Notes under the pieces: model-generated | What the model was told of the DNA's origin: nothing | Seen by the model: the letters and a program-made list of their open reading frames with translations, nothing else | Database searches by the model: none | Translations under genes and position numbers: made by a program | NCBI GenBank assembly: GCA_944362765.1 | Contig: CALVTP010000001.1 | Coordinates: forward strand, 5,395-69,394 | Reading direction: 5' to 3' | Source of the DNA: an uncultured Clostridia bacterium | Lineage (GTDB): Bacteria; Bacillota; Clostridia; Christensenellales; DTU072 | DNA: 64,000 nucleotides | In this document: piece after piece, positions 17,842-56,579 of the stretch | Layout: each line of letters opens with the position of its first letter | Numbering within the stretch: the first letter of the stretch is position 1

Positions 17842-18756
<915 letters not shown>

Positions 18757-25511: not shown

Positions 25512-25514
25512 TCA

Positions 25515-25904: not shown

Positions 25905-25930
25905 CGAAATATTAATTAAGGAGTTCCGAA

Positions 25931-26332: not shown

Positions 26333-26369
26333 TCGCTTTCCCGATTTGTTCATTAACTAAGGACGTTTT

Positions 26370-39615: not shown

Positions 39616-39667
39616 ATCTCCGATATAAATCGGACATAGAACAGTCCGACATTAATAAGCCACGAAA

Positions 39668-39692
39668 AGTCCGCACTCGGTGCGGGCTTTTT
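39668..39692 (+). terminator. rho-independent terminator after the GH3 gene
   Basis: AGTCCGCAC-tcg-GTGCGGGCT (9 bp, one G-U) followed by TTTTT. Confidence 0.85.
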
Positions 39693-39812
39693 GCGTCTTT
39701 TTGCTTTTTTCGGAACCGGGAAGAAAAATTAGCGAAAAAAACTTCCCTCCCGAAAAAAATTATATCAACCGGGGGCGCGCCTTCATATATTGTCGTATTG
39801 ACAGGGGGCAAT

Positions 39813-41831
39813 GTGAAAAACTATTTCGGAACGGACGGCATAAGAGGTAAGGCGGAGAGCTTTACGCCTTCGTTTATCGGCGCTGTCGTGGCGGCGATAG
39901 CCGAGTACTACAATAAGCCCGATATCGTCATCGGGCGCGACCCGAGGCTTAGCGGAAGTGAGATAACGGCACTTTTTAAAGGCGCTGCCGGTGCGGCGGG
40001 AATGAGCGTTACGGACGCCGGCATGGTGCCCACTCCGGCGCTCGCCTTTCTGACCGAAAAGCGTGGAGCGGGGCTCGGGGTGATGGTGTCGGCTTCTCAT
40101 AATCCACCCGAGTACAACGGTTTGAAATTGTTTTCCGGGAGGGGGGCGAAGATAACGACCGCCGAAGAAGAAGCGCTGTCGGCGTTGATAGAGAAAGAAC
40201 TCGAAACCCCGGGTATAAGCGGCGAGTTTGTCAAAACAGAGGCAAACGAGTACAGCCTGATAGAGGAATACATAGCGGGCGTCGGCGAACAATTCAGCGC
40301 CGACTTCAGGGGAATGAAAGTAGTTCTGGACGGCGGCTCGGGAGCTGCGGGCGGCGCCGCGGCAAAGCTTTTTTCCGCGTTCGGCGCCGAGGTCGAACTT
40401 TTAAATGACGCGAACGGCGCCGAAATAAACGTCGGCACCGGGGCGGCGCACCCGGAATACCTGTTGAAAGCGGCGGGAGAGGCGGACATCGCCTTTGCCT
40501 ACGACGGCGACGGCGACAGAGTTATGTGCGTAAGGCACGCGCGGATACTCTCCGGAGACGAGATGCTGTATATCGTATTAAAAAATATGATACGTTCGGG
40601 AGGGTTGGAGCCGCCGGTCGCGGTGGGCACGATAATGACGAATTACGGCGCGGAGGAGTCGCTGAAGGGGCTGGGAATCTCCCTTCTGAGGACGCCGGTC
40701 GGGGACAAATTCGTCTCCGAAGCAATGGAAAAAACGGGCGCGAAAGCGGGCGGAGAAAGGTCGGGACATCTGATTTTCAAGGACTACCTGAACACCGGGG
40801 ACGGCATATTGACGTCGCTTCTCGTGGCAAAGGCTTTTTCGGAATACGGCGACGAAGCGCGGGAAGGTTACTTCGAATTTCCGGCAGCGGAGGGCGTTTT
40901 GCCTGCCACCGAAGAGGGGAAAAAACTGATGAGAGTTTCGCCGGAAATCGACGCATTTATCGCCGCGGAGAGCGCTTCCCGGGGCGTTGAAATCATTGCG
41001 CGCCCGTCCGGGACGGAACCGGTCATAAGGGTCAAGGCGGAGGCTCGCGACACGGAAACCGCGGTGCTGACACTTAACAGGACGATGGCTTATATAGAAA
41101 GCTTCATAAAATCAAAAATCAAGAATAAGGCTTCTGAAATCGATTTAACGGATACCCAAAACCAAGGAATAAAGCAAGAGACTTTGGAGCGCATCCGTCT
41201 TACGGGAGGAGTGGTGATCGCCCCCGAACTATGCTTTATCTCCCCCGAAGTCGTCGTGAAAAAAGGAGCCGTCATACACCCGTTCACGGTGCTTTCGGGC
41301 GCTGCCGTTTTGGAGGAAGGCGCCGAAGTAAAAAGCTTTTCCTGTATCCGCGACTCCGTTGTCGGAGAGGGGAGTGTCGTAAGCCATACCGTGGCTGTGG
41401 GGGCGAAAATAGGAAAGCATTCGTCGGTCGGTCCCTTCGCGTTTTTGCGCCCGGGAGCAGTCATCGGCGACGGGGTCAGGGTAGGAGATTTTGTCGAAAT
41501 CAAAAACGCCGTTTTAGGAGACGGCGTCAAGGCGGCGCACCTTAGCTACATAGGCGACGCCGTCGTCGGGGACGGTACCAACGTCGGGTGCGGCACGGTT
41601 TTTGCAAATTATGACGGGGCGAAAAAACACAGAACCGAAGTCGGGAAGGGGGCGTTTATCGGCTGCAATGCCAATCTGATAGCGCCGCTGAAAATCGGCG
41701 ACGGCGCTTTTATCGCGGGCGGGAGCACCGTGACGGAGGACGTGGGAGCGGGCGAAATCTGCTTCGGAAGGTCCCGTCAGGTCAATAAGCCGGGAAAGTC
41801 CCGCGGGGAGCCCCGGGATACGGAAAAGTAG
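39813..41831 (+). CDS. phosphoglucosamine mutase fused to a GlmU-type left-handed-beta-helix acetyltransferase domain
   Basis: The GlmM half has YFGTDGIRG, the phosphoserine loop SASHNP, metal loop DGDGDR, GERSGH and RPSGTEP. An AT-rich linker spans 41091-41180. The C-terminal ~215 aa carry the GlmU acetyltransferase pattern HLSYIGDAVVGDGTNVGCGTVFANYDGAKKHRTEVGKGAFIGCNANLIAP. GTG at 39813 (RBS AGGGGG) is preferred to TTG at 39798. Confidence 0.85.
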   Translation: MKNYFGTDGIRGKAESFTPSFIGAVVAAIAEYYNKPDIVIGRDPRLSGSEITALFKGAAGAAGMSVTDAGMVPTPALAFLTEKRGAGLGVMVSASHNPPEYNGLKLFSGRGAKITTAEEEALSALIEKELETPGISGEFVKTEANEYSLIEEYIAGVGEQFSADFRGMKVVLDGGSGAAGGAAAKLFSAFGAEVELLNDANGAEINVGTGAAHPEYLLKAAGEADIAFAYDGDGDRVMCVRHARILSGDEMLYIVLKNMIRSGGLEPPVAVGTIMTNYGAEESLKGLGISLLRTPVGDKFVSEAMEKTGAKAGGERSGHLIFKDYLNTGDGILTSLLVAKAFSEYGDEAREGYFEFPAAEGVLPATEEGKKLMRVSPEIDAFIAAESASRGVEIIARPSGTEPVIRVKAEARDTETAVLTLNRTMAYIESFIKSKIKNKASEIDLTDTQNQGIKQETLERIRLTGGVVIAPELCFISPEVVVKKGAVIHPFTVLSGAAVLEEGAEVKSFSCIRDSVVGEGSVVSHTVAVGAKIGKHSSVGPFAFLRPGAVIGDGVRVGDFVEIKNAVLGDGVKAAHLSYIGDAVVGDGTNVGCGTVFANYDGAKKHRTEVGKGAFIGCNANLIAPLKIGDGAFIAGGSTVTEDVGAGEICFGRSRQVNKPGKSRGEPRDTEK

Positions 41832-41897
41832 TCTTTCGAATCTTCCTTGGGCGGCCGAACGGAGCCGCGGAAGGTAAAAGTATAGCAAAATTCAGCG

Positions 41898-41921
41898 GGA
41901 GCCCTTGCGGGCTTCTTTTTT
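41898..41921 (+). terminator. rho-independent terminator after the glmM-fusion gene
   Basis: GGAGCCC-ttgc-GGGCTTC followed by TTTTTT. Confidence 0.6.
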
Positions 41922-41992
41922 ATTATATATAATTAAGTCATGTATGGCGCGTTGCGCGGGAGCGCACGCGTATGTGTTAAGGAGATATCGAT

Positions 41993-44900
41993 ATGGCGCG
42001 TTACAGAATCCCCGGAAAAAATTACTCCAGACGGAGCATATTCGGCATAACGGCGATAGTAGTTGTCGTTGCCGCATTGGTGGCGGCGGGCGTCGCGGTG
42101 GCGGTGCTTCCGTCTGTCGTCGACGGGCATGAGGGTTCGGAATTTGTCACGGACGGCGGGTATACGCGCCCCGTTGTCACGGCGATAGTTTTGGAAAACG
42201 ACGGCAGGATTTCGGTAAACGCCAATCTCGAAAACGTATTTGCGACCGTTCAATATTCCGACGGGAGCGTCGAGCAGGTGGCTTTGTCCGAAATGCTGAT
42301 AGAAGGACTCGATCTGACTCAGTCGAATACTTCGTCGGACGTCGTTCTGGACTTCGGCGGATTCAAACAGAGCGTCGTTTTCGAGGTCATACCGACGACG
42401 CTGACGGTTACATACATAGCGGGCGAGGGCGGTTCGGTAGAGGGCGACCTCATCCAGGAAGTAATTGCGGGCGAAGACGCGACGACGGTGAGAGCCGTTC
42501 CCGACGCCGGGTATGAGTTTGTGCGTTGGACGGACGGTTATCCCGAACCGGAAAGGCGCGACAGGGCGATAAGCAAGACGACTACGTTGCAGGCGGTATT
42601 CAGAAAACAGACATTCACGGTGGTATTCTTCTATCCCGACGGCACTACGGCGAGGGAGGAGACGGTGCAGTACAACATGTCTCCGACGGATATCCCCGAT
42701 CCCGACGAAGGCGAAATGCGTCTGTACGGATATCGCTTTGCCGGCTGGGACACCGATTACAGTCATATAACCCAAGACACCGAAATTCACCCGATAATGG
42801 TCAAGCATGCCATAGACCTGAACTTCACGGCGACGTCGGACGGCGACGGCGCTTTGGGAGGCATACAAGACATTATGCCCTACTATCCGATAGGGCAGCA
42901 GACGGTATTGAGGCTGACCCCGAACACCGAAAGGGTATTCCTCGGCTGGGAGATTACCGACAAGGACGGTTCAGTCGTCGAATTCCCCGCCGACAACATA
43001 ACGGGAGAAGGGTACAGTCGGTCGGTTTCGCTGTTCGACTCAATCTCGGTGACGTTTACCGCCGGGCAGACGGGCACGGAAGGAAGAAACGAATATACTT
43101 TGTCGTTCACCATTCCCGAAGGGGCGGTAACGGGCACTTTCGACCTCAATATCCACGCCGAGTTTGCTTATAGTAAGAGCATAGTCACCTTCGTAAGCCA
43201 AGGGGCTTCCGGCAACTTATATAGTGCCGAACTTAATTACGGCACCCCCGTCGGAACGCTTTTTGCGGAGGCGGAAAGCAGGCTTCCCGAGAGATCCGGT
43301 TACGAGTTTGCGGGCTGGTATTACGAACTGAATGAGTCCGGGGCGCCCGATGTATTGGACGGCGACGAGTTCATCGCAATGGACGCGACGCTGACGGCGC
43401 TTTGGGAAAGCCTCAGTTACGATGTGAAATTCATATTGGACGGCATCGATAACGCAGAGGATTTTGAGGGACTTGACGGATATTTCAACGAAGACGGTAA
43501 TAGAGGAATAAGGCTCAGAGTAAAGTACTCCGATACCCTCGAAAGTGCCGTTTCCGGCACGATTGACGGCGTCGAATACGGCGTATATCCCGCCGTCGCT
43601 CCGGAAAAGGAAAATTATATTTTCAACGGCTGGTATGTCGTCGACGCCAACGGCGCCATGACGGAGACCGCCGCTGCGAAAGATTACATAGTAAGCGGCG
43701 ACACGACGCTAAGGGCGAAATTTTTGCCGCGCACGGTGAATGTTAAAATCGTTGCGGACGGCGGAGTCGTCGAAGGCGCGGACAACGTTTCCGTCTTCGG
43801 TTCGGTAATGGTGCCTGTGACGGAAGACTTCTCCTTCCGCACAAAGCCGAATGTCGGGTATTCGCTTGGCGACATCCTGTGGAACGGTGAAACGTACATC
43901 GAAGCTCCCGTCGTCGGAGAGGACGGTTACTTTGACGGCTCCATAGCGGCAAGCGATTTGCAGAAGGTCAATACCGAAGCAACTCTGACGATAATTTTCA
44001 TTCCCGAGAACAATCGTATCACCATAGAAGCGTCGGGCGGCGGCGGAACATTTACTTACAATCTGACGGGAGCCGCGGGCGGAGAAACTTTCGATGTGGC
44101 GGCGGGAAATTCCGCCTACTTCGAAGTGCCCGACGGAAGCTCCGTTACGATAGCCATCCGTCCCTCCAATATCCAGCAAAGGATAAGTTCGGTGTCGGTC
44201 GATTCCGCTCCCGAGATGACGGTGCCGCAGTCGGAATACAACCTGATTCTGGAAGCGGTCGACGCCGACAAGAACATAGTGGTCGAATTCGAAAACGTCT
44301 ATTACTCGATAGACTATCCGACCGAAGAAGAGTGGGAAGGCTATTCGATAAACTCCTACGACGTGACGGCGGGCATGACCCACCTGCAAGGCAGCAACGT
44401 CAAATTCACCGTAACGGCGGAGGAAGGCAAATATATTTCGGAGGTTCGCGTAAACGGCACGTTTATGGACGTTTACAACCTTGAAAACGGCTTGACGGCA
44501 TATTGCACCATAGACGAATTCTACGTCAACGGCGCGCTTTACGAAAATAATGCTCCCGTCACCGGAGTCAACGATTACCGTATAACCGCCATAACCTTCA
44601 ACGTAGCCGGCATCATGCAGAACACGGTGATATCGGTGGCGGCGGAGGATATGTATTATAACGTGTCGTTTTCGGTAGTCGACGAAAGCGGCAATTCCGT
44701 AGACGCGACGCTTTCCCCGGGAGGATCATTCACGGAGGAATACGGCAGCACGGCTTCCGTCGACGCTACGGTGCAGAACATCTATTATATTTATTCCGTT
44801 TACGACAGCGCGCGGGGAGAGACGGAATTGTTGTCGCAGCAGCTGTCTGCTTATCAATATACGACCGAGCCGCTGACGGGAGATACGGAGATAGTCTTCA

Positions 44901-47900
44901 CGGTGCGACCGGCGCTCAGGACGATAACCTTCAGCTTCCCCGCCGGGATAATAGGCATAGAATATAACTCCGCCATTTTGGATATCGGCGCCGAAGAGAC
45001 GACATACACCGTAAGTGACATCGTCAACGGCGGCAATGCCACTTTCAGACTGTATGTGAAATCGGTCGGGTATCAGCTCGACAGCGTCTCTTCCGTCAGC
45101 GATTCCGGAACGATTAACGAAGACGTCGGCTTCAGGGTGACCTCTCATACCATGACCTTCAACTCCGTCGAAAGCGACTACGAGGTCAATGTCAGGGCGT
45201 CCGAAATAAACTACGACGTTGAAATTTTCGCCGTCAACAAAAAAAATGTAACCATAAGTATTGCCGGCGGCAGTCCCGTATCCGGAGACGGCACGGGGAC
45301 AATGCTGGAGCTGACATACGATGCCTACATGAACGGCAGTGCCGAAATAAGCATAATGCTTACCGGTAAGACCGCTCTTTCTGCCGGCGACATCATCGTC
45401 ATGAACGCAACGGGCGGCGATTACGGATACATATATGCCGAAGACGACCCTGAGGAGGGCGGATATTATAAACTGGAGGGCGATGTCTCCAATCCGACTC
45501 TGACCGTGTACAGGATAGCTTCCGATGTCACCATTTATCTGAATATCCACGACAAAGAAGCAAGCTCGATAACCTTCGGCGCTTCGGGCGCAGGCAGTTT
45601 GACCGCCGAAAAAGGCGGAGTATCAATCACGTCCGGCGACCCCGTCTCGGCAGGGGATGAGATAATATTTAAGGCAAAGCTTCAAGGGACAAGTCTTTTA
45701 GGCTTTATGATCGACGGAAGCTGGGTCTCGGCAGACAGCAGCGAAATCGAGTATGCCGACGGCGTATACGAATACATTTATGTTGTGAAGGAAGGCGTGT
45801 CGCCGCAGGTCTTTGCTTTCTTCGGTGAACTTCGCTATCCGGTCATCATTGACACGCAGATATCGGGCGGCACGGTAAGGACGGAGCCCGAATCGGTTTC
45901 CGGCGGAGAGACGCTGAGAATCAAATTCATTCCGGACGAAGGGTACAAGCTGAAGAGCTACAGCCTGACATATAACGCGACAGGCGATACGTATGAAGAC
46001 TGGGCAGGATTGCCCGGCGAGGGCGCTTCCCTGACGGCAGAGTACACCATCAATGAGAATTACAACGGCAGCGTGACGGTAAGAGCCGTGTTCGAACCGA
46101 TAACCTTCTCGGTCGAGTGGGACTACGACGCCCAAAACGGTTCGGCTATTGTTCCGGACGCCGCCACAGAATACGAAGAAATGGAATACGGTTCCGTGTT
46201 ACGGCTTGAAATAAAGGCGAACTCCGGACAATACATTTCGTCGATAACGGTGAACGGGCTGGAGTACGGCGCCGAGAATCTCTCTAACGCAAGCTACGAC
46301 GAAGATCTCCGGAAATACACCTCCGGTACCCTTGAAATCACCGTGCGGACAGATATTTACGTCGTTATCAGTTACAGCCCCGGCGTGTACACGCTGTCGA
46401 TACGCGATAACCCCGGCGGCGTCACTTATGCTTCCTGCGGGAACGGCGCGTACGGCGATGTCGACTCTCTGAGCTTCACCGCCAAGGATGTAATCAAATT
46501 GAAGCTGGAAGCCGAAGAGGGCTATCACATCGAGTCCATAAGAATTCACGGAGAAATTTATGACGAATGGCTCGATTCGGTCGAAGGGATAGAAGATGAA
46601 GTACGGCAGCTGGTGCTGACATTGACCGAAGGCGACGAGCTGCGCGGCGAAGGACTCGGCAATATAGACATCGAAGTTACCTATCGGATAAATGTCTATG
46701 ACGTCGTTCTGAGCGCCTCCAACTCGAGCCCCAACTTTGCCGATTTCGACAGAGTGCCTGCCGACTTCGGTACCGTGACGATATTCGGTGAGGCAGCGGC
46801 GGATTCCTTTGCGGTGGAGCACGGAGCCAATATTCTTGTCGTGGTTTCGCCCGTGCGTTCCAAGCGTTATATCGTCAGCTCCATGACCGTCAACGGCGTT
46901 TACGTGGATATCGGCACGGGTGACGGAGGCATACAAAGCACCGGCGGCAACTATCTGATAAACGTCACCGACGACATCGAAGTCGAAGTAGTGTTCACGC
47001 GCGAAACTTACGGCACCAGTCTTACGGATTATTTCAACAATCCCGCCGGCATCGAGCAGACTACCGGCGTCAACGCCTGGGCGGGCGAATTCTCGTTGGC
47101 GTTTACGCATCCGAACGACTCCTCCCGCGAAGTCATAGCGTCCGCGGAAAACACCTATGAGTACGGTTTAAGGTATGTGCTTACCGCCAATCCGGGAACG
47201 GGATATAATGTCGAAAGCCTCATGATAAACGGAGAGGAGTCCAAGGATTCTCTCGGTTCCGCTTACGTCGTCAGAAGGATTCTCGGCTCCTCCCTCGAGG
47301 TACAGGTGACCTTCGCCATCAGTTTCTACCGCGTAGAGTACACATTCAGCTCCGCAGAGGCTTTTGACAGCTCCGGAGCGCTTATAAGTTACGGTTCCGG
47401 AGCGCTGAACGTCACAAGGCGGGACGAAAGCACGCTGAATCTGTTCGATGCGGAAAGCGATACGACCTACCAACTCGTCAACGGCGGACTCGTAAGGGAT
47501 ATAACCGTAGACGGGAGTACGCTGGTCGCGTGGGTAAGCTACGGCTCCGAATTGACATTTATCGCCACTCCGTCGTTTGCCGATCGCGGCGGAAGGGTTT
47601 CCGATATCGATTTCCGTTCCGCAAATTCTTCCGTCGGCGTCGACCCCGTCGAGGACGGACAGCCGATGGCCCTGACCCGCAGGATAGCCGCCGATTCCAC
47701 GCTTTCGGTGGAATTCGACATAACCGTATACGAGTTTAAAGTTACCTCCGGGGTGGGCGGCAGCGTCGTATTAACGGGCAACATGGACGGAGATATGATA
47801 GATTGGCACCAAGCCGTGTCGATAGCTCTCACCCTTTCTGAAGGTTACGAGCTTCCCTCGGACTCCGTAGCAGTCTATATCGACGGCGTCCTCGACGAAA

Positions 47901-50900
47901 CCAGATCCGCGCAAGCGCGGAGCGCTTTGTCTGAGGGCAGCTGGCAGGTTTCCTCCGTGGAAGGCGATTACGACATTCATATCACTCCCGCAAGAAAACA
48001 TGTGAAAGCTTCGTTCGGCGGGAACTACAAAGTTTCGCACGGTTCGGCGGTTGCCGACTCGAGGCTGACGATCGCAAGGAGCGGCAGGGTGTTCGGAACG
48101 ACTCTGAACGGCACTCTGACCGAGTACGGCGAAGGCGGCAGCATGATGGCGACGTTGGTGGATACGGTAGACGGCGAGTATGTCGGGATTTTGTATAACG
48201 ACTCCGTCACCGTCTCTCTGACCCCCATAGAAGGCTATACGGTACATTCCGCCAGGGTCACGATAACCTCGCTTGAAAACGGCGCGACATTGACCGAATA
48301 CACGCTTGACGATTTCAACGGTATACCCGGTACGGAAGGGAAGAGCCTTACCGTGAATGCCGCGAAAGGCAACATTACAATCGATGTAAGTTATGAAAAG
48401 AAGAGTTACGAGCTGGATATTGTCGTTGCCGGCGGTATCGATTACGGAAGCTTTGTTACGGGTGAACTGACTCCCGAAAGCGGTGCCGGGGTTTCATCGA
48501 TAGCCGACGGAGGACAGGCGGAGCACTACGACAGCCTCAGAATTGTCTTCCGGGCGGATTACGGCTACTACATCTCCTCATTCATGCTCTGCAACAGGAG
48601 AATGGAGATAGGTTCGGGAGCTTCCTCCGATTACATCGTTTCTGCCGAGAAGAACGACTCCAACGAATACGTCTATACCGCTTCCTTTGAAGTCAACGCT
48701 TCCATATTAAACAATTCTTCCGTGATATCGGTAAGCGTGACGTTTGCGCCGCAGCAATTCGTTCTCGAAACGGGTTATACCGGGAATGCGGCGTCGTGGC
48801 TCACTCCGAGCCCCGAAAACGGTTCGTTAAGCTATAACCCCGCCGTCGGCAGCGCCTTCGGATACACACTGGCAGAGGGCTATGAAATAACCGCCGTGAC
48901 GATATATTCCACCTCTGCATGGAGCGCCGATACGGCGAATCCGATCGGGATACTTGACCGGATAGACGCGCTGACGTCGACCGCTAAACCCGGTATCAAC
49001 GAATACCTGAGCCGCACTCCCGCAGGTTCCCCCGCCGGAGAATTGACGATGCGGATAGATATCGGGAAGGAGCTCACTCCTCAGGACACCTCCTCTTCCG
49101 TGCGTTCGATAGTCGACGCGATGGATATTCACTCCGGGGCGGTCACCGTTTATATCGTGTTCAGCGTGGATACGAGTAAGTATGACGTCGATTTCGACGG
49201 TGCTTACGCGGCGAGAGCGGGGGACGGCGACATGATGTTTGGTAATGGCGCTACCGGAAATATCACCGAAAACAGAGTCACTTATATAAGATATGATTGG
49301 AGTTTCAGCTCCCAGGGCGGAACGTCGACGATCCTTACCGGTCATTCCCACGGCACGACGGCAACTTTGACGATAGAGATCCCCTCGCGGAGCGACAGAC
49401 GGTTCGTCTTCGAAGGCATTCAGGAATATGTCGGCGGCAGCTGGGTGTATCTCGAGGACGGCGACGATATCACGATAGAACGGCAGGAAGGCGTAGCCAC
49501 CGTCTCCTATACGATGAAGTCCACCAGAACATTCCGCATAATCTTCTATGAGATGATCGATGTCAATCTGAAGATGACTCCGCTGTATAAATATGTAGGC
49601 GGCAGCTTTGCGTCAGAAAACGTCGGCAGTCTGAATTATTCCGTCTTTGCTTCCGTTTCCGCATCGGCAACCTATTCGGCACCCGCCGGTTTCGACAACA
49701 TCGTGCCGAACGTCGCGGGACTCAGCGAGAGGTTGACGGGAACCTCTGCCGACGCGGCGACAACGGTCTTCTCGGTAAGGTTCGGAGGGGTGCTGATACC
49801 CTCGGCGGTCGATACTTTGGCGACTTCTTCGTCGAGCAGAGCGAATATTTCCTTCTATACCGAACCCGGTCTCGACAACATAGTCCCCGAAAACGGCATT
49901 TCCGTAACGGAGTCTCGGACGCTCTACGGAGCCGACACGGAAATGAACCTTTTGCTGAGCGTTTCCTTCCGCACACAAGGCGAAGATATAGGCACGAGGG
50001 GCGGAACCATCAGCGGCGCTTCCATAAGCGACGGCTCGATCGTCTTCAATCCCGGCGATGAATTGAGCTTTACGTTACAGCCGAATGCGGGCTACCGCGT
50101 CGGCGCCGTCGGATTCCTTCCCGATACCGGTACTCCCGGCGCGGGCGGAAGAAGACAGTTTGCTTCCGAGTACGTCATGATGGAAGTGCCCGCGGATAAC
50201 GGTGGAGAGCTTTCGGACGACGCCTTCCCGTTTACGCTTATTCCCGGCATCGGAGGCAACTACACGCTTCGATTCAACGACTCCGGCGAAGGCATGGTAA
50301 TACGCATACTCTTTATAAAGCAGATAACGTTAACGCGCTCGATATCGCTGTTGGACGGGTATGAATCCCCCGTGTTCTTCAATCAGTTCAAGTGGGAGGA
50401 AAACGCGCTTTGGGAAAGCACGGATAACGACGATTCGGCTTCCGTAATCATCGATTACGGTACCCAAATAAGCCTTCAAGTGCAGGAAAACTTTGCCGCC
50501 GTCACTTCTTCCGACGTGCGTTACCGCTTTGTCGGATACCTGATAAACGGCGTCATGCAGGATCTCACGTTGTCCAGAGCCTACCCCGGTTCCACCCAAA
50601 GGAACTTCACTATTTCCGATGACGCAATGAACGGCGCCACGGTGGCGGGCGGAAGCGGAGTTTTCACCGTCGAGGTAGTGGCGCTGTACCAGCCGGTATA
50701 CACCATTGTCATAGACAACGTGTTTTTCGATACCGACGGTCGCTGCGTCAATCCGGGCTCCGTTACGATGCGGACATATCTATATGATCATTCGCGCGTA
50801 CAATACGTGCAGAACACCTTAGCTCTTGCGGCGGCGACGGGAGACAGCGGAGCGAACGCCACGGACGGCAAGTTGTATTTCAGAGTGCTTGGCGGCATCA

Positions 50901-53900
50901 ACGGAAATTCCGGCAACGCATACAACACCTGGAACGAGAATACGATAACCCTTAATTGGGGACGGGAAGGCTACTCGGAAGGATTTGTTCTGAGAGGCTG
51001 GGAAGTGTACGCTTATGACGGCTCGGGGTGGAGCTGGAAACAGATCGGGAGCGGCAATAACTTCTCGTTCGAAATAAACGCCCTCTTTGAGGAGTCTTAT
51101 TTAAGGTATGTCAACACCAATAACGAGGTAGACAATAACTATACAAACATTTCCGGAGGGCTTAAAAACCATACCGACGAGGGAAGCGGCTATGTTTACG
51201 GTATTCCCGAAGGGAGTGCCTACGACGACTATTGTATAATGATTCGTCCCGTTTTCGAAAAGCAGAACACCATTTACACCATACCCGAAGTGGCGTCTAT
51301 TTATGCGGGAACTTATATCCCTTACGAAAGCGATCAGATGAATCCTCCCGTAAGACCTTCCATAAACGGTAATACGGACAGTTTGCAGAAGAACTTCTCG
51401 CAGGGCACTACGGCGGTGCTGAGACCGAACGTGTCGAACGAGTACGTTTTCGAAGACTGGTGGGTAGATATAATAGGGGAAGACGGAAGCGTTGAGCGCC
51501 ATCGGTTGGAAGCAGGAAGCAATATAACGCTATCCGGCGTCGCCAACCGCAACGGAGAGCCGGCGGAGTTCACTTATAGCCTGACCACGAGCGACGATAC
51601 GGACAAAAACGCGCTCTCCATCGTCATGAACGACCACTACAAAGTCTATGCACGTTACACCGCGCAGCACAAAATGACGATAAGCGCCACGAACATCACC
51701 GCAACCTCCTTCAATGCCGCTTTGCCGAAGCTTAATATCTCTTATAAGCGGACGCCGACGTCCGAAGCGGAAGTTTTGGTAGACGAGGGATTCCCGACGG
51801 ACGCCTTGGAAAAATACGGCTTTACCTTCGTGGGCGGTGTTTTCAGCGGCATGGTCGCGGTCGGAGGAAGGCTCACTGCTTCGTTATCCGTAGCCGGTTA
51901 CAGTTCCGAGCCCGGCGAAATCGACTTCTTCAACCCGCGCTACGACAGGTTCAGCGACGTACACATACAGGTTTCCGGCAAGGATATTTTCGGAACGGGA
52001 CAGACCGGCGACGACGCCGACCAAACGTCCTTGCGCACTCTGGAACAGATTCAGGCATATCTTTCCGGTAATGCCGTGGGCGATGGCGCGGCGATAAGCT
52101 ACCAAGCCTATACCGAACTTCTCGAAACATTCAGTCTGGAGATCGTCTCCAACAGTTCCAAGACAATTACCTTTGATTTCATAAGCTACGGCGAAATCAA
52201 CATCGAAGACGTTTTCACTACGGGGGTCGAGGGCTCCACGGCGGGCGTCAAGCTTCCCGCGGCTTTGGCAGAGGCGCTGGGTTATGACGGAGATATCTGG
52301 GTCTATGACGGCGACGTGAGAGGAGTGGTAAGCGACGCGGACGGGATTGTGGACGGCAATATCCGTATTGCCAACGTGCCGATAATAAGCGGTTCGGGCT
52401 ATGATAACATCTCCGGTGACGCGAAAGAAATGGACTTCTGGCTGAGAATCAGGCACGGTGACGGTACGATAATCACTCTTGACAACAGCGATATCGGCAG
52501 ATTGGGCATAAGCTTTTCCGAAGCTTCCGCATACAAGAAGATTTCCCGCGTTTCGCTGTACGGCACTCCCAGTTCGGGTCTTACGTCCTTCCCGTTCGGT
52601 AATAAGGATGCCGCCGGCGATCATCTCGGAGGAGGCGACGGCACACTCGGCGCGCCCTTCCTGATTTATACGGCGGAGCATCTCAACAGCATAGACAGGA
52701 TATATAAAGGTAATGACGGCGTCATGAGCGGTATTTATTTCCGGCTGGAAGACGATATCGATTTGTCCGGATCGGCTTTCGGAGGCCGTCTCACTGCGGA
52801 CGTAGCGACCGTACAAGGAACCAAACTCAGCATGGGCTTCACCGGCACGCTTGACGGCGACGGACATTCGATAACCAATATAAGCATTAACATTTCCGGA
52901 CAAAACGATTACGTCGGATTGTTCAGCAAGATAGGAAACGGCGGAAGCGTCTCGGATCTCCGACTTTCCGGCTCGGTCATCGCCGAACAAGGGAACTATG
53001 TCGGGATGCTTGCAGGCTATGTCATGGGCGGCAGAATCAGGGACGTCACGATCTTTAATCCCGATGTCTCATCCGGGCAGAACCAAGTCTACGGCAATAA
53101 GTACGTGGGCGGATTGGTAGGCTATATTACGGGCACGAGCGGAGAACAGGAAGCAACGATATCCTTCGGCGCAGATACCGAAACCGTCGTTCTGGAAAGT
53201 ATCGTGGTTTATGCCTATACCGGCGGCACATATGATTCGTCGTCCAAGAATTATACCGGCGGTGTCGGCGGTATCGCGGGCGCTATGGGAGCCTATTCCA
53301 GGATTACGGGGGATTATACCTACACCGGCGAGATACCCGAAGATGAAGCGGCGGCGGGTGAGTTGAATCTGGACTTGGATCTGCTCAGCGCAAATGCCAT
53401 ATTAAGAAGTGTCGTCGTGGTCGGTCAATATGCCTCCGGTATCTTGGTCGGAAGTGTTGAAGACCGCACAAATACCGCCTCAACGGAAGAAGGCTCCGAG
53501 TACAAATTTGCCGTCTCAGGCTTCAAGGTCGAATATGCTACCGGAGACGATCAGACGCAGTCCGGTAAGGCGGCGCTCGGCGGAGCGATAGGCTTTATCG
53601 GGTACAAGGTCGTCGTAGGGCTTTTGGATGTCAACATTGTGGGAACGCACGCTGTTTCGGGCGACAGACCCGATAATACCGTCCAAACATTCACAGAGGA
53701 TCTTGCGCGCTCATTGGGCGTAGGCGGCTTGGCGGGTAATAATATCGGCACGATCAGATATTCCAAAGTGACGGGAGGCGGTTTACTGGACGTCAAAGCC
53801 GGCGCGGTAGGCGGTGTAGCGGGCGTCAATTTCGGTACCATTGAAAATGTCAGCATGCAAATCCGCTTGAAGGTCAACAGGCGTGCCCCGACAGGCGAGC

Positions 53901-54805
53901 GCGGATTGACTGCCGCGTTGGGAGGCATAGCGGGCGTCAACTGGACAAATGCGTCGATAATTGACTGTGAAGTCGCGATGCCGCTCGGTACCTTCGGAGA
54001 CGAGGAGGCGCTGGAGGCAGACGACGCCACTCTGGAAATGATTACCGGCAGCGATATCTACGACCCGGTAGCAAACGGCGGCATGGGTGGCGGCTTGTAC
54101 AGTCAAATCAATTATGAAGACGCGACAAATATCTATGTCGGTCTCGCGACCGGATATAACGGCGGGAGCGCTTACGTCAGAGGCGGCAATTATGTAGGTA
54201 AGATTTTGGTCAATCGCCGTAACAACGATGTCTCCACCGGGCAAAGCTACGTCGGCGGCGCGGTAGGGTACAGCGATTCCACCGTGGCGTCCACCGGTAT
54301 TACGACAAATGTTCATATTTGCTTCTTCCAATACCTCTATGTCGATTCCGATGTGGATGAAAACGTAAAAAACAGAGAGCAAATCCTGAATGTCGGCGGC
54401 ATATACGGTAAATCTTCCGGCGCCGAGGTTTCGGGTACTTACGACGGAGCTCGGATCTATGCCGCATACCTGGGCGGCGGCGATGCATTGTCGCAGGGGG
54501 ATCTTGACCAATCTTCCTGGACGCCGAGTAATGCTTACATGACCGGTACAAATGTAGGCGCGGCGAGAATAAATGTGACTGCAGGAGAATTGACGAAGGA
54601 ATGCCTGATGCCTGCCGACCCTTCCGGATCGATATTGAAAACCTGGTATTATAATGAATCCAACGAATGTCCCAAGTGGGTGCATGATGATGTGCTAAGA
54701 ATTAAGATTAACTGGGCTGCTACTGACTGGTTGCCCCCTGATTTGGAGTTTGGGTGGGGATATATGTACGCCGGCAACGGAAGATACGTAAATATTTATT
54801 CTTAA
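41993..54805 (+). CDS. giant (4270-aa) N-terminally membrane-anchored surface protein with InlB-B/Listeria-Bacteroides-type repeats, serial beta-sandwich modules and a Gly-rich GLUG-like C-terminal region
   Basis: SD AAGGAGA. TM anchor IFGITAIVVVVAALVAAGVAVAVL. Repeats of the Y.F.GW type (AGYEFVRWTDG, YGYRFAGWDTD, SGYEFAGWYYE, ENYIFNGWYVV). Dozens of ~90-100-aa modules with GG(S/T)V ... EGY.(I/L).S..VNG. From about nt 52650: PFLIYTAEHLNSI ... DIDLSG ... FTGTLDGDGHSITN ... YVGGLVGY / GGIAG / GGLAGNN repeats. No LPXTG, SLH or choline-binding tail was recognised. Confidence 0.85.
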   Translation: MARYRIPGKNYSRRSIFGITAIVVVVAALVAAGVAVAVLPSVVDGHEGSEFVTDGGYTRPVVTAIVLENDGRISVNANLENVFATVQYSDGSVEQVALSEMLIEGLDLTQSNTSSDVVLDFGGFKQSVVFEVIPTTLTVTYIAGEGGSVEGDLIQEVIAGEDATTVRAVPDAGYEFVRWTDGYPEPERRDRAISKTTTLQAVFRKQTFTVVFFYPDGTTAREETVQYNMSPTDIPDPDEGEMRLYGYRFAGWDTDYSHITQDTEIHPIMVKHAIDLNFTATSDGDGALGGIQDIMPYYPIGQQTVLRLTPNTERVFLGWEITDKDGSVVEFPADNITGEGYSRSVSLFDSISVTFTAGQTGTEGRNEYTLSFTIPEGAVTGTFDLNIHAEFAYSKSIVTFVSQGASGNLYSAELNYGTPVGTLFAEAESRLPERSGYEFAGWYYELNESGAPDVLDGDEFIAMDATLTALWESLSYDVKFILDGIDNAEDFEGLDGYFNEDGNRGIRLRVKYSDTLESAVSGTIDGVEYGVYPAVAPEKENYIFNGWYVVDANGAMTETAAAKDYIVSGDTTLRAKFLPRTVNVKIVADGGVVEGADNVSVFGSVMVPVTEDFSFRTKPNVGYSLGDILWNGETYIEAPVVGEDGYFDGSIAASDLQKVNTEATLTIIFIPENNRITIEASGGGGTFTYNLTGAAGGETFDVAAGNSAYFEVPDGSSVTIAIRPSNIQQRISSVSVDSAPEMTVPQSEYNLILEAVDADKNIVVEFENVYYSIDYPTEEEWEGYSINSYDVTAGMTHLQGSNVKFTVTAEEGKYISEVRVNGTFMDVYNLENGLTAYCTIDEFYVNGALYENNAPVTGVNDYRITAITFNVAGIMQNTVISVAAEDMYYNVSFSVVDESGNSVDATLSPGGSFTEEYGSTASVDATVQNIYYIYSVYDSARGETELLSQQLSAYQYTTEPLTGDTEIVFTVRPALRTITFSFPAGIIGIEYNSAILDIGAEETTYTVSDIVNGGNATFRLYVKSVGYQLDSVSSVSDSGTINEDVGFRVTSHTMTFNSVESDYEVNVRASEINYDVEIFAVNKKNVTISIAGGSPVSGDGTGTMLELTYDAYMNGSAEISIMLTGKTALSAGDIIVMNATGGDYGYIYAEDDPEEGGYYKLEGDVSNPTLTVYRIASDVTIYLNIHDKEASSITFGASGAGSLTAEKGGVSITSGDPVSAGDEIIFKAKLQGTSLLGFMIDGSWVSADSSEIEYADGVYEYIYVVKEGVSPQVFAFFGELRYPVIIDTQISGGTVRTEPESVSGGETLRIKFIPDEGYKLKSYSLTYNATGDTYEDWAGLPGEGASLTAEYTINENYNGSVTVRAVFEPITFSVEWDYDAQNGSAIVPDAATEYEEMEYGSVLRLEIKANSGQYISSITVNGLEYGAENLSNASYDEDLRKYTSGTLEITVRTDIYVVISYSPGVYTLSIRDNPGGVTYASCGNGAYGDVDSLSFTAKDVIKLKLEAEEGYHIESIRIHGEIYDEWLDSVEGIEDEVRQLVLTLTEGDELRGEGLGNIDIEVTYRINVYDVVLSASNSSPNFADFDRVPADFGTVTIFGEAAADSFAVEHGANILVVVSPVRSKRYIVSSMTVNGVYVDIGTGDGGIQSTGGNYLINVTDDIEVEVVFTRETYGTSLTDYFNNPAGIEQTTGVNAWAGEFSLAFTHPNDSSREVIASAENTYEYGLRYVLTANPGTGYNVESLMINGEESKDSLGSAYVVRRILGSSLEVQVTFAISFYRVEYTFSSAEAFDSSGALISYGSGALNVTRRDESTLNLFDAESDTTYQLVNGGLVRDITVDGSTLVAWVSYGSELTFIATPSFADRGGRVSDIDFRSANSSVGVDPVEDGQPMALTRRIAADSTLSVEFDITVYEFKVTSGVGGSVVLTGNMDGDMIDWHQAVSIALTLSEGYELPSDSVAVYIDGVLDETRSAQARSALSEGSWQVSSVEGDYDIHITPARKHVKASFGGNYKVSHGSAVADSRLTIARSGRVFGTTLNGTLTEYGEGGSMMATLVDTVDGEYVGILYNDSVTVSLTPIEGYTVHSARVTITSLENGATLTEYTLDDFNGIPGTEGKSLTVNAAKGNITIDVSYEKKSYELDIVVAGGIDYGSFVTGELTPESGAGVSSIADGGQAEHYDSLRIVFRADYGYYISSFMLCNRRMEIGSGASSDYIVSAEKNDSNEYVYTASFEVNASILNNSSVISVSVTFAPQQFVLETGYTGNAASWLTPSPENGSLSYNPAVGSAFGYTLAEGYEITAVTIYSTSAWSADTANPIGILDRIDALTSTAKPGINEYLSRTPAGSPAGELTMRIDIGKELTPQDTSSSVRSIVDAMDIHSGAVTVYIVFSVDTSKYDVDFDGAYAARAGDGDMMFGNGATGNITENRVTYIRYDWSFSSQGGTSTILTGHSHGTTATLTIEIPSRSDRRFVFEGIQEYVGGSWVYLEDGDDITIERQEGVATVSYTMKSTRTFRIIFYEMIDVNLKMTPLYKYVGGSFASENVGSLNYSVFASVSASATYSAPAGFDNIVPNVAGLSERLTGTSADAATTVFSVRFGGVLIPSAVDTLATSSSSRANISFYTEPGLDNIVPENGISVTESRTLYGADTEMNLLLSVSFRTQGEDIGTRGGTISGASISDGSIVFNPGDELSFTLQPNAGYRVGAVGFLPDTGTPGAGGRRQFASEYVMMEVPADNGGELSDDAFPFTLIPGIGGNYTLRFNDSGEGMVIRILFIKQITLTRSISLLDGYESPVFFNQFKWEENALWESTDNDDSASVIIDYGTQISLQVQENFAAVTSSDVRYRFVGYLINGVMQDLTLSRAYPGSTQRNFTISDDAMNGATVAGGSGVFTVEVVALYQPVYTIVIDNVFFDTDGRCVNPGSVTMRTYLYDHSRVQYVQNTLALAAATGDSGANATDGKLYFRVLGGINGNSGNAYNTWNENTITLNWGREGYSEGFVLRGWEVYAYDGSGWSWKQIGSGNNFSFEINALFEESYLRYVNTNNEVDNNYTNISGGLKNHTDEGSGYVYGIPEGSAYDDYCIMIRPVFEKQNTIYTIPEVASIYAGTYIPYESDQMNPPVRPSINGNTDSLQKNFSQGTTAVLRPNVSNEYVFEDWWVDIIGEDGSVERHRLEAGSNITLSGVANRNGEPAEFTYSLTTSDDTDKNALSIVMNDHYKVYARYTAQHKMTISATNITATSFNAALPKLNISYKRTPTSEAEVLVDEGFPTDALEKYGFTFVGGVFSGMVAVGGRLTASLSVAGYSSEPGEIDFFNPRYDRFSDVHIQVSGKDIFGTGQTGDDADQTSLRTLEQIQAYLSGNAVGDGAAISYQAYTELLETFSLEIVSNSSKTITFDFISYGEINIEDVFTTGVEGSTAGVKLPAALAEALGYDGDIWVYDGDVRGVVSDADGIVDGNIRIANVPIISGSGYDNISGDAKEMDFWLRIRHGDGTIITLDNSDIGRLGISFSEASAYKKISRVSLYGTPSSGLTSFPFGNKDAAGDHLGGGDGTLGAPFLIYTAEHLNSIDRIYKGNDGVMSGIYFRLEDDIDLSGSAFGGRLTADVATVQGTKLSMGFTGTLDGDGHSITNISINISGQNDYVGLFSKIGNGGSVSDLRLSGSVIAEQGNYVGMLAGYVMGGRIRDVTIFNPDVSSGQNQVYGNKYVGGLVGYITGTSGEQEATISFGADTETVVLESIVVYAYTGGTYDSSSKNYTGGVGGIAGAMGAYSRITGDYTYTGEIPEDEAAAGELNLDLDLLSANAILRSVVVVGQYASGILVGSVEDRTNTASTEEGSEYKFAVSGFKVEYATGDDQTQSGKAALGGAIGFIGYKVVVGLLDVNIVGTHAVSGDRPDNTVQTFTEDLARSLGVGGLAGNNIGTIRYSKVTGGGLLDVKAGAVGGVAGVNFGTIENVSMQIRLKVNRRAPTGERGLTAALGGIAGVNWTNASIIDCEVAMPLGTFGDEEALEADDATLEMITGSDIYDPVANGGMGGGLYSQINYEDATNIYVGLATGYNGGSAYVRGGNYVGKILVNRRNNDVSTGQSYVGGAVGYSDSTVASTGITTNVHICFFQYLYVDSDVDENVKNREQILNVGGIYGKSSGAEVSGTYDGARIYAAYLGGGDALSQGDLDQSSWTPSNAYMTGTNVGAARINVTAGELTKECLMPADPSGSILKTWYYNESNECPKWVHDDVLRIKINWAATDWLPPDLEFGWGYMYAGNGRYVNIYS

Positions 54806-56490: not shown

Positions 56491-56579
56491 AAACGGCTGA
56501 CCATCGGTGACCGGCTCCGTTCGGCGGTCTTCCCGACGGACGACAAGCCCGGCGGCAAATGCCCGCAAAAGAGGAAAGT

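What the first reader, a model, noticed from the sequence alone, without database searches (positions are those of the whole stretch)
39813..41831. GlmM mutase fused to only the acetyltransferase half of GlmU
Seen in sequence: one 672-677-codon ORF combines two enzymes.
- It contains a complete phosphoglucosamine mutase: SASHNP phosphoserine loop, DGDGDR, GERSGH and RPSGTEP.
- Its C-terminal ~215 aa match the left-handed beta-helix acetyltransferase domain of GlmU: HLSYIGDA.VG...N.GCGT...NYDG..KH.T..G..AFIG.N..L.AP.
- There is no N-terminal uridylyltransferase (nucleotidyl-transferase) domain.
- The junction (41091-41180) is conspicuously AT-rich and Lys/Asn/Ile-rich (IKSKIKNKASEIDLTDTQNQGIKQ) compared with the GC-rich flanks. 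This looks like a former intergenic spacer turned into a linker.

Established knowledge: bacterial GlmU normally couples acetyl transfer and uridylyl transfer in one protein, and GlmM is separate.

Inference: this fusion would channel GlcN-6-P to GlcN-1-P to GlcNAc-1-P and leave uridylylation to another enzyme. The gene sits directly upstream of the giant surface-protein gene.
Basis: partly seen in the sequence, partly recalled or inferred. Interest (0 to 1): 0.66.

Follow-up and report, generated by a model that had tools for sequence, protein, structure and literature searches.

The report
GlmM fused to GlmU acetyltransferase half
One intact gene joins two consecutive enzymes of bacterial cell-wall sugar (UDP-GlcNAc) synthesis and has dropped the third activity normally attached to the second; this is a real, conserved but so far undescribed rearrangement in a group of uncultured gut Clostridia, and the same two enzymes have also been fused in the opposite order.

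Summary
Window 39813-41831 (+) is one uninterrupted 672-codon gene. It encodes a complete phosphoglucosamine mutase (GlmM, aa 1-435), a disordered Lys/Asn/Ile-rich linker of about 19 aa, and the helical-arm remnant plus left-handed beta-helix acetyltransferase domain of GlmU (aa 455-672). No uridylyltransferase domain is present in the gene, the 64-kb window, or within 10 kb of any homologue.

It is not an artefact. About 40 protein clusters (27-99% identity) from uncultured Clostridia MAGs share this architecture, with every catalytic residue of both enzymes invariant. Eleven further clusters carry the reverse order (LbH then GlmM). Unfused neighbours also exist (LbH-only/glmM/glmS operon), as do GlmUs with a degenerate N-domain.

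The likely function is housekeeping conversion of GlcN-6-P to GlcNAc-1-P, with uridylylation left to an unidentified separate enzyme (a NagU/UAP1-like or N-only GlmU candidate).

The "former intergenic spacer" idea is not supported. All homologues have an AT-rich hydrophilic linker whatever their genome GC.

No paper found describes the fusion, and databases call it "hypothetical protein".

Verdict: a new variant of a known kind, of moderate interest.

The parts
39663..39697 (+). Terminator-like hairpin plus T-run that closes the upstream GH3 gene (37183-39615). It implies that the fusion gene has its own transcription start.
   Evidence: 14-bp stem, 7 GC pairs, T-run; GH3 domains
39803..39815 (+). 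Ribosome-binding site AGGGGG (39803-39808) and the likely GTG start codon (39813-39815).
   Evidence: sequence. The family consensus N-terminus is MxxFGTDGIRG. The TTG at 39798 would add 5 aa that homologues lack.
39813..41831 (+). The whole fusion gene: 672 codons plus a TAG stop.
39813..41117 (+). GlmM module (aa 1-435), a complete four-domain phosphoglucosamine mutase. Its active-site loops are: phosphoserine loop SASHNP (40089-40106; Ser95), metal loop DGDGDR (40503-40520), sugar loop GERSGH (40752-40769) and phosphate loop RPSGTEP (41001-41021).
   Evidence: PGM_PMM I-IV; TIGR01455, 326 bits, profile 1-434/442; 3pdk at 2e-71 and 7ojr at 2.3e-71, full length; Foldseek TM 0.84-0.87 to GlmM structures; loops invariant in 39 sequences; coordinates
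41118..41174 (+). Inter-domain linker (aa 436-454, KIKNKASEIDLTDTQNQGIK). It is AT-rich (GC 0.35; core 0.24), hydrophilic and predicted disordered.
   Evidence: pLDDT below 50 for aa 438-450; GC; equivalent AT-rich linkers in the homologues, 14-18 aa in the main clade
41175..41204 (+). Remnant of the GlmU alpha-helical arm (aa 455-464, QETLERIRLT). In GlmU this arm sits on top of the LbH trimer.
   Evidence: helix 455-464; GlmU profile match starts at position 234; aligns to GlmU residues from about 240-250; role of the arm, review PMC10087520
41205..41828 (+). GlmU-type left-handed beta-helix GlcN-1-P N-acetyltransferase domain plus C-terminal tail (aa 465-672). Key residues, with E. coli equivalents in brackets: R546 (R333), E562 (E349), K564 (K351), H576 (H363; codon 41538-41540), Y579 (Y366), N590 (N377), N599 (N386), K605 (K392), C618 (S405) and R653 (R440).
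   Evidence: 9dqf GlmU 6.8e-56; residue-level alignment to 3fww; invariance; the same residues occur in full GlmUs, and Cys at the S405 position is common there
41897..41926 (+). Terminator-like hairpin GGGAGCCCTTGCGGGCTTCT plus T-run, between the fusion gene and the giant gene.
41993..54805 (+). Giant 4270-aa membrane-anchored surface-protein gene. It is a conserved downstream neighbour within this clade only, and is probably not functionally coupled to the fusion.
   Evidence: giant genes of 3663-4207 aa follow the fusion in relatives; colinear homology over more than 3300 aa; 8 of 8 loci

Best explanation
The gene encodes a bifunctional enzyme of the housekeeping hexosamine pathway.

Proposed mechanism:
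- The N-terminal GlmM module isomerises GlcN-6-P to GlcN-1-P, by the phosphoserine/Mg2+ ping-pong mechanism of alpha-D-phosphohexomutases.
- The C-terminal GlmU-type LbH module acetylates GlcN-1-P with acetyl-CoA to give GlcNAc-1-P.
- The two modules are folded independently and are tethered by a flexible linker of about 19 aa.
- The advantage is 1:1 co-expression and proximity. This lets the essentially irreversible acetyl transfer pull the mutase equilibrium. No sealed channel is implied.
- GlmM dimerises through domain 1 and the LbH domain must trimerise to be active. The protein is therefore predicted to form a higher-order assembly, for example a hexamer.
- UDP-GlcNAc formation is left to a separate, unidentified GlcNAc-1-P uridylyltransferase. 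Candidates are a NagU/UAP1-like enzyme, an N-domain-only GlmU, or another sugar-1-P nucleotidyltransferase.

What is shown: architecture, intact active sites, conservation, absence of the uridylyltransferase domain, independent fusions and unfused intermediates.

What is inferred: enzyme activities, oligomeric state, kinetic benefit and the identity of the partner.
For: - Both halves match their families over the full length. GlmM: 326 bits; 2e-71 to B. anthracis and B. subtilis GlmM; TM 0.84-0.87. GlmU C-domain: 235-241 bits, profile 234-446; 6.8e-56; the next family reaches only 2e-16.
- All signature and catalytic residues of both enzymes are invariant across 39 same-order fusions at 32-69% identity. 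They are also invariant across reversed-order fusions, low-GC fusions and unfused forms. This indicates purifying selection on both activities.
- Fusions in both orders fall in separate clades.
- An LbH-only gene overlaps glmM by 8 nt and is followed by glmS in L064. A fusion is followed after 3 nt by glmS in L009. Both tie the module to the GlmS-GlmM-GlmU pathway.
- The AF2 model shows two confident domains and a disordered tether.
- No second GlmM, LbH-GlmU or GlmU N-domain occurs in the window.
- E. coli GlmM plus only the GlmU acetyltransferase domain suffices in vivo when a separate GlcNAc-1-P uridyltransferase exists (PMC4358021).
- C-terminal-only GlmUs paired with NagU are reported in other bacteria, and NagU occurs sporadically in Clostridia (bioRxiv 10.64898/2026.06.23.733835).
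- GlmM is a dimer, and the LbH trimer is required for activity (PMC10087520).
Against: - No uridylyltransferase was found. Only 64 kb of this genome and 10-kb flanks of relatives could be searched, so the pathway's last step is unaccounted for.
- I could not test whether the same genomes also carry a canonical glmM or glmU, so the housekeeping role is inferred.
- GlmM and GlmU profile scores are below the NCBIfam equivalog cut-offs (326 vs 447.55; 235 vs 366.85). For GlmU this is expected because half the protein is absent.
- AF2 gives no inter-domain interface, so true channelling is unsupported.
- The trees are rough neighbour-joining trees without support values.
- No biochemical data exist.
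Confidence: 0.8

Rival explanations
1. The fusion is a specialised paralogue rather than the housekeeping enzyme. On this reading it supplies GlcNAc-1-P (or a related N-acyl hexosamine-1-P) for a dedicated surface glycan, for instance one decorating or anchoring the giant surface protein encoded immediately downstream. Canonical glmM and glmU would exist elsewhere in the genome.
For: - The fusion gene is followed by the giant gene in 8 of 8 main-clade loci, even where the upstream genes differ.
- Profile scores are below the equivalog cut-offs.
- The rest of the genome is unseen.
Against: - Terminator-like hairpins bracket the fusion gene, including one between it and the giant gene.
- Other fusion clades lack the giant gene. 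They sit next to glmS (L009) or next to unrelated genes (L007).
- The GlmU substrate-binding residues are unchanged.
- The nearest relatives of the GlmM half are ordinary stand-alone GlmMs labelled Christensenellales.
- The conserved adjacency can be explained as inherited gene order within one family.
Confidence: 0.1
2. The LbH half has been recruited for something other than GlcN-1-P acetylation. It might act as a different acyltransferase, or serve as a trimerisation or regulatory scaffold for GlmM. In that case the protein is functionally just a modified GlmM.
For: - Hexapeptide acyltransferases are functionally diverse.
- JGI annotates one member simply as 'phosphoglucosamine mutase'.
- The E. 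coli S405 position is Cys here, and R331 is Phe.
Against: - All residues that bind GlcN-1-P, and the catalytic His, are invariant.
- Cys at the S405 position is also found in ordinary full-length GlmUs and in the PDB GlmU 9dqf.
- The best non-GlmU LbH family scores far lower (2e-16 against 7e-56).
Confidence: 0.07
3. The fusion is an assembly or sequencing artefact, or a pseudogene: two adjacent genes (glmM and a truncated glmU) wrongly joined through a low-complexity AT-rich spacer.
For: The junction is compositionally distinct (GC 0.31 against 0.58).
Against: - The same uninterrupted architecture occurs in about 40 clusters at 90% identity, from many independent assemblies. One cluster alone has 274 member sequences.
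- The linker is partly conserved as protein among the closest relatives: FIKSKIKNKASEIDL, YLKTKIKVKASESTI and FITKKMEITASEKCN.
- Catalytic residues of both halves are under selection.
Confidence: 0.01

Closest known systems
Canonical bacterial GlmM plus bifunctional GlmU (E. coli, B. subtilis; PDB 3pdk, 7ojr, 1hv9, 2oi5)
   Same: - The same two chemistries and the same folds.
- All catalytic and substrate-binding residues of GlmM and of the GlmU acetyltransferase site are present.
- The helical-arm remnant and the C-terminal tail of GlmU are retained.
   Different: - GlmM and the acetyltransferase are on one polypeptide.
- The GlmU N-terminal uridylyltransferase domain (about 230 aa) is absent.
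- The predicted oligomer must reconcile a dimerising module with a trimerising module.
C-terminal-only (acetyltransferase-only) GlmU variants working with the UAP1-like uridyltransferase NagU (Fong et al., bioRxiv 10.64898/2026.06.23.733835)
   Same: - The acetyltransferase half of GlmU is uncoupled from the uridylyltransferase half, which implies a separate uridylyltransferase.
- The phenomenon is reported sporadically in Clostridia.
- I also see LbH-only genes (L015, L064, L029, L040, L042).
   Different: - Here the LbH half is covalently fused to GlmM, in either order. The preprint does not mention this ('fusion' and 'fused' give 0 hits).
- The presence of NagU in this lineage is untested.
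Monofunctional GlcNAc-1-P uridyltransferase GlmU_Cc of Capnocytophaga canimorsus and the GlmM + GlmU-del78 rescue experiment (Renzi et al. 2015, PMC4358021)
   Same: It shows experimentally that GlmM plus the GlmU acetyltransferase domain forms a sufficient functional unit when uridylylation is supplied by a separate enzyme. This is exactly the division of labour implied here.
   Different: - There the two proteins were separate E. coli proteins supplied artificially.
- C. canimorsus naturally lacks both activities, whereas this lineage has both on one chain.
Archaeal bifunctional sugar-1-P nucleotidylyltransferase/acetyltransferase (ST0452 type; PDB 2ggo, 5z09)
   Same: It has an LbH acetyltransferase domain acting on amino-sugar-1-phosphates. 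It is a weak hit (2e-16).
   Different: - It has the GlmU-like order, with a nucleotidyltransferase N-domain, and no mutase.
- It is much more distant than bacterial GlmU.

Membership tests
GlmM (phosphoglucosamine mutase, alpha-D-phosphohexomutase superfamily) | Four-domain architecture (PGM_PMM I-IV) covering the full length | tested here: met
   all four Pfam domains; TIGR01455 profile 1-434/442; TM 0.84-0.87 to GlmM crystal structures
GlmM (phosphoglucosamine mutase, alpha-D-phosphohexomutase superfamily) | The four active-site loops: phosphoserine (S/T-x-S-H-N-P), metal-binding (DxDxDR), sugar-binding (GExSGH) and phosphate-binding (RxSGTEP) | tested here: met
   SASHNP, DGDGDR, GERSGH and RPSGTEP located; invariant in 39 homologues; aligned to 3pdk and 7ojr; loop definitions from PMC10087520
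GlmM (phosphoglucosamine mutase, alpha-D-phosphohexomutase superfamily) | Closer to GlmM than to PMM/PGM or other phosphohexomutases, and reaching the equivalog score | tested here: inconclusive
   GlmM is clearly the best match: 326 bits against 121 or less for PMM/PGM models, and 244 against 135 or less in the PDB. However, 326 bits is below the TIGR01455 cut-off of 447.55.
GlmM (phosphoglucosamine mutase, alpha-D-phosphohexomutase superfamily) | GlcN-6-P to GlcN-1-P mutase activity; dimer through domain 1 | not testable with these tools
   Needs an enzyme assay and SEC-MALS or cryo-EM.
GlmU acetyltransferase domain (GlcN-1-P N-acetyltransferase, LbH) | Left-handed beta-helix of hexapeptide repeats preceded by the helical arm, matching the GlmU C-terminal half | tested here: met
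   Hexapep; GlmU models 235-241 bits, profile 234-446/452; GlmU PDB chains 7e-56 to 1e-40; helix 455-464, then beta-strand ladder
GlmU acetyltransferase domain (GlcN-1-P N-acetyltransferase, LbH) | GlcN-1-P and acetyl-CoA site residues (E. coli R333, E349, K351, H363, Y366, N377, N386, K392, S405, R440). The residue roles come from my knowledge of Olsen et al. 2007 and were not retrieved here. | tested here: met
   alignment to 3fww, whose numbering is colinear with E. coli; R546, E562, K564, H576, Y579, N590, N599 and K605 invariant; R653 at 90% or more. S405 is Cys618, a variant also present in full-length GlmUs and in 9dqf.
GlmU acetyltransferase domain (GlcN-1-P N-acetyltransferase, LbH) | Trimerisation, required for activity | not testable with these tools
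   Only a monomer model could be made. The requirement is stated in PMC10087520.
Bifunctional GlmU sensu stricto | N-terminal GlcNAc-1-P uridylyltransferase (nucleotidyltransferase) domain on the same polypeptide | tested here: not met
   No NTP_transferase hit in Pfam. GlmU profiles match only from position 234 onward. An HMM built from 20 GlmU N-domains finds nothing in the six-frame window at E of 1 or less.
Split-GlmU / NagU-dependent UDP-GlcNAc pathway (Fong et al. 2026) | Acetyltransferase-only GlmU derivative in the genome | tested here: met
Split-GlmU / NagU-dependent UDP-GlcNAc pathway (Fong et al. 2026) | A NagU (UAP1-like, UDPGP family) or N-only GlmU gene in the same genome | not testable with these tools
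   Only 64 kb of the genome is available. No hit was found in the window or in 10-kb flanks of relatives. A from-memory UAP1 probe also found nothing, which is a weak negative.

The most novel reading that the evidence does not exclude
These Clostridia run a re-wired UDP-GlcNAc pathway. GlcN-1-P never leaves a GlmM-acetyltransferase 'metabolon': the covalent fusion of a dimer-forming module to a trimer-forming module builds a defined higher-order assembly (hexameric cage or larger) that channels the intermediate. The last step is done by a non-GlmU uridylyltransferase. Convergent fusions in both domain orders would then reflect strong selection for sequestering GlcN-1-P, and would predict a so far unrecognised GlmM-GlmU physical interaction in ordinary bacteria (Rosetta-stone logic).
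Probability: 0.25. Interest if true: 0.6.

Novelty: new variant of a known kind. Interest (0 to 1): 0.45.

Why it matters
GlmM and GlmU are essential, bacteria-specific antibiotic targets, and GlmU has long been treated as a universal bifunctional enzyme.

This family adds a third layout to the recently recognised diversity of that pathway:
- the acetyltransferase half is detached from uridylyl transfer;
- it is welded instead to the preceding enzyme;
- this has happened at least twice, in opposite orientations, and unfused intermediates are still extant.

What it offers:
- a natural test case for whether coupling the mutase to acetyl transfer has a kinetic benefit;
- a Rosetta-stone hint for GlmM-GlmU association elsewhere;
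- a pointer to an unidentified GlcNAc-1-P uridylyltransferase in a widespread group of uncultured gut Clostridia;
- a ready-made single-gene GlcN-6-P to GlcNAc-1-P catalyst for metabolic engineering, where glmM and glmU are routinely co-expressed.

It does not overturn any principle. Fusion of consecutive pathway enzymes is a common evolutionary theme.

Tried and rejected
Search for the missing uridylyltransferase:
- Pfam scans of 30 window ORFs found no NTP_transferase or UDPGP protein and no second PGM_PMM protein. A fourth scan of the remaining ORFs failed on bad coordinates. The six-frame searches cover those regions for GlmU-N, GlmM and LbH.
- An HMM built from 20 GlmU N-domains found nothing in the window, or within 10 kb of any fusion or LbH-only locus apart from one weak NTP-transferase-like ORF about 4 kb upstream of the LbH-only gene in L029. 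Its only other hits were frameshifted full GlmUs in L025 and L048.
This is a weak negative only.
- The conserved Pfam-less 311-346-aa gene upstream of the fusion in relatives is a membrane-anchored protein. It is not an enzyme candidate and is absent from the window.
- I could not enumerate the other genes of the MAGs that carry the fusion, so glmU, nagU or a second glmM elsewhere remains untested.

Other checks:
- 'Spacer capture' origin of the linker: rejected as unsupported.
- Co-transcription with the giant gene: disfavoured by a terminator-like hairpin.
- Riboswitch or ribozyme control: there are no Rfam hits in the whole window.
- Length-based inference of architectures from the exhaustive C-domain search was abandoned, because many representatives are metagenomic fragments.
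- Literature searches for a described GlmM-GlmU fusion returned only engineered co-expression constructs. A search for 'GlmU His363' returned nothing, so residue roles rest on my own knowledge.
- No GlmM-GlmU interaction is reported in the M. tuberculosis GlmM paper checked.
Full report
**1. Observation**

The window holds one uninterrupted ORF, 39798..41831 on the + strand. The probable start is GTG 39813, which gives 672 aa. AGGGGG lies 4 nt upstream, and the family consensus N-terminus is MxxFGTDGIRG.

Domain searches agree on the two halves:
- Pfam finds PGM_PMM domains I-IV followed by hexapeptide repeats.
- The NCBIfam glmM equivalog model is matched over profile positions 1-434 of 442 (326 bits).
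- GlmU models are matched only from profile position ~234 to the end (235-241 bits). The nucleotidyltransferase half is therefore missing.
- The junction 41091-41180 has GC 0.31 against 0.58 on either side.

**2. Is it real?**

Yes. A protein search returned a 99%-identical 672-aa protein from independent assemblies. It also returned about 40 further 90%-identity clusters with the same GlmM-then-LbH architecture, down to about 30% identity. All come from uncultured Clostridia/Christensenellales-type MAGs and metagenomes. One such cluster alone has 274 member sequences, on contigs up to 150 kb.

The nearest species-representative genomes are Candidatus Stercoripulliclostridium merdigallinarum (68%) and an uncultured Clostridia MAG (67%). 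NCBI places that genus in Eubacteriales incertae sedis.

The linker is partly conserved as protein among these closest relatives. An assembly join or a pseudogene is therefore excluded.

**3. Are both halves functional enzymes?**

GlmM half:
- It aligns end to end with the B. anthracis and B. subtilis GlmM structures (about 2e-71).
- The AF2 model built on the family alignment superposes on GlmM crystal structures with TM 0.84-0.87.
- The four active-site loops defined for GlmM (PMC10087520) are invariant in 39 homologues: Ser95-His-Asn, D231/D233/D235/R236, E315/S317/H319 and R397/S399/T401/E402.

LbH half:
- It matches GlmU structures at 7e-56 to 1e-40. The next family (archaeal ST0452-type) reaches only 2e-16.
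- I used the residue-level alignment to Y. pestis GlmU 3fww, which is 456 aa and colinear with E. coli numbering.
- By that alignment, the GlcN-1-P/acetyl-CoA site residues map to R546, E562, K564, H576, Y579, N590, N599, K605 and R653. Their E. coli equivalents are R333, E349, K351, H363, Y366, N377, N386, K392 and R440.
- All of these are invariant or at least 90% conserved. The residue roles come from my own knowledge of the E. coli GlmU structures.
- E. coli S405 is Cys618 here. Cys at that position also occurs in PDB GlmU 9dqf and in most full-length Firmicute GlmUs I retrieved.

This is a bona fide GlmU-type acetyltransferase domain that retains about 10 residues of the GlmU helical arm (helix 455-464).

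**4. The linker**

AF2 predicts aa 438-450 as disordered (pLDDT below 50) and gives no fixed inter-domain interface (pTM 0.64).

The AT-rich dip is not peculiar to this genome:
- I compared eight loci (window included) whose gene GC ranges from 0.21 to 0.57.
- In seven of them, linker GC is 0.11-0.38 and always below the flanks. The exception is the most AT-rich homologue, L012 (linker 0.20, gene 0.21).
- The sequence is always K/N/I/E/T/D-rich, and the length is 14-18 aa in the main clade.

The dip thus follows from the amino-acid composition of a hydrophilic flexible tether. Because the fusion predates divergence to about 40% identity, any original spacer sequence would be unrecognisable. 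'Former intergenic spacer' is possible in principle but has no specific support.

**5. Wider evolutionary picture (new relative to the finding)**

- (a) Eleven clusters (P0040-P0050) carry the reverse order, LbH then GlmM, with the LbH tail running straight into the FGTDGIRG start of GlmM.
- (b) A deep, low-GC group (P0097, L012) has the GlmM-then-LbH order but branches separately, next to an unfused relative.
- (c) Unfused states exist. In L064, an LbH-only gene overlaps glmM by 8 nt and glmS follows. In L015, glmM, rnhA and an LbH-only gene lie together. In L009, a fusion is followed after 3 nt by glmS.
- (d) L032, L039 and L024 have GlmU-type LbH domains preceded by 135-200 aa with no detectable nucleotidyltransferase fold.
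- (e) In a rough NJ tree, all these 'N-domain-less' LbH domains group apart from ordinary GlmUs, and L032 is sister to the main fusion clade.

Catalytic residues of both enzymes are retained in every form.

The simplest history has three steps. First, the uridylyltransferase domain decays or is lost. Second, an acetyltransferase-only gene comes to lie next to glmM. Third, fusion occurs at least twice. The trees have no support values, so the number of events is tentative.

**6. Context in the window**

The gene is bracketed by terminator-like hairpins at 39663-39697 and 41897-41926. It has no Rfam-detectable leader element, so it looks monocistronic.

The giant 4270-aa gene follows it in all 8 main-clade loci with downstream sequence, and the giants are colinear over more than 3300 aa. 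Other fusion clades lack the giant gene. I read the adjacency as inherited gene order rather than functional coupling, but I keep the alternative as a rival.

**7. The missing step**

No GlmU N-domain, UDPGP-like protein or second GlmM/LbH was found in the window or within 10 kb of any fusion. A conserved upstream unknown gene turned out to be a membrane-anchored protein.

The literature makes the division of labour plausible:
- E. coli GlmM plus only the GlmU acetyltransferase domain rescues C. canimorsus, which has a monofunctional GlcNAc-1-P uridyltransferase (PMC4358021).
- A June-2026 preprint shows that S. aureus relies on a UAP1-like NagU. It also reports that many NagU-bearing bacteria, including sporadic Clostridia, have only C-terminal, only N-terminal or split GlmU.
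- That preprint does not mention GlmM fusions.
- My other searches found only engineered glmM-glmU co-expression.
- Public databases label the proteins 'hypothetical protein' or 'phosphoglucosamine mutase'.

**8. Mechanism proposed**

The GlmM module converts GlcN-6-P to GlcN-1-P. The tethered LbH trimer acetylates GlcN-1-P to GlcNAc-1-P. A separate enzyme then makes UDP-GlcNAc.

The benefit is stoichiometric co-expression and proximity, which pull the mutase equilibrium. This is inference, as there is no structural evidence for a channel.

GlmM dimerises through domain 1, and LbH trimerisation is essential for activity. A higher-order assembly is therefore predicted but untested.

**9. Verdict**

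This is a real, conserved, uncharacterised domain rearrangement of known enzymes: a new variant of a known kind.
- Interest is 0.45. It is timely and evolutionarily neat (convergent fusions with extant intermediates), and it points to an unknown uridylyltransferase. It is mechanistically unsurprising.
- Confidence in the bifunctional GlmM/GlcN-1-P acetyltransferase assignment is about 0.8.

Noticed in passing
window 19908-23921 (+): A 1337-aa ORF at the end of an argG-argH-argC-argJ-argB-argF-carA-carB cluster (12212-23921). It combines a full carbamoyl-phosphate synthase large chain with a C-terminal DAP_epimerase (DapF) domain at about aa 1216-1317. This is another unusual enzyme fusion in the same window.
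   Followed up: no
window 41993-54805 (+); L001, L003, L005, L010, L011, L090, L091: The giant 4270-aa membrane-anchored protein (Flg_new/Flg_new_2-type repeats in homologues) is colinear over more than 3300 aa with giants of 3663-4207 aa. These giants always follow the fusion gene in the main clade (8 of 8 loci), although the upstream genes differ.
   Followed up: partly
P0040-P0050; L007 10001-12016, L008 2880-4895: Eleven protein clusters have the reverse domain order (GlmU-LbH then GlmM, 616-672 aa). Both active sites are intact, and there is no giant gene nearby. This is an independent fusion of the same two enzymes.
   Followed up: yes
L064 9629-13363; L009 5275-8864; L015 3856-6625: Unfused or operonic states. 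L064 has an LbH-only gene overlapping glmM by 8 nt, followed by glmS. In L009 a fusion is followed after 3 nt by glmS. L015 (Lachnospiraceae MAG) has glmM, rnhA and an LbH-only gene.
   Followed up: partly
L032 9530-10537; L039 3263-4312; L024 3440-4693: Clostridia and Oscillospiraceae MAG proteins of 335-417 aa have an intact GlmU-type LbH domain. Their N-terminal 135-200 aa have no detectable nucleotidyltransferase fold, so the uridylyltransferase domain is apparently degenerate. L032 is sister to the main fusion clade in the LbH tree.
   Followed up: partly
L029 9992-10663; L040 9920-10663; L042 3650-4309; L059 2842-3471: Stand-alone LbH-only GlmU C-domain genes (209-247 aa) occur in Acidobacteriota and Defluviitaleaceae MAGs. 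L059 runs into the contig end. L029 has a weak NTP-transferase-like ORF about 4 kb upstream.
   Followed up: no
L001, L003, L090, L091 (about 1-9900): A conserved block lies upstream of the fusion in several relatives: nagB (except in L091, whose fetched stretch begins at the ABC genes), ABC transporter pair, Big_2 protein of 890-929 aa, beta-helix protein of 858-876 aa, membrane-anchored protein of 311-346 aa, and PNP_UDP_1. The window lacks this block and has MFS, a 335-aa membrane protein and GH3 instead.
   Followed up: partly
window 1-64000: No Rfam family reaches its gathering score anywhere in the 64 kb, so there is no tRNA, rRNA or riboswitch. Other genes noted are a BspA-type LRR protein (7517-9160), oxaloacetate decarboxylase alpha and beta subunits (24090-27551), a RecD2-type helicase (29402-31603, minus strand) and a NagD-like HAD hydrolase (56559-57356).
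   Followed up: no
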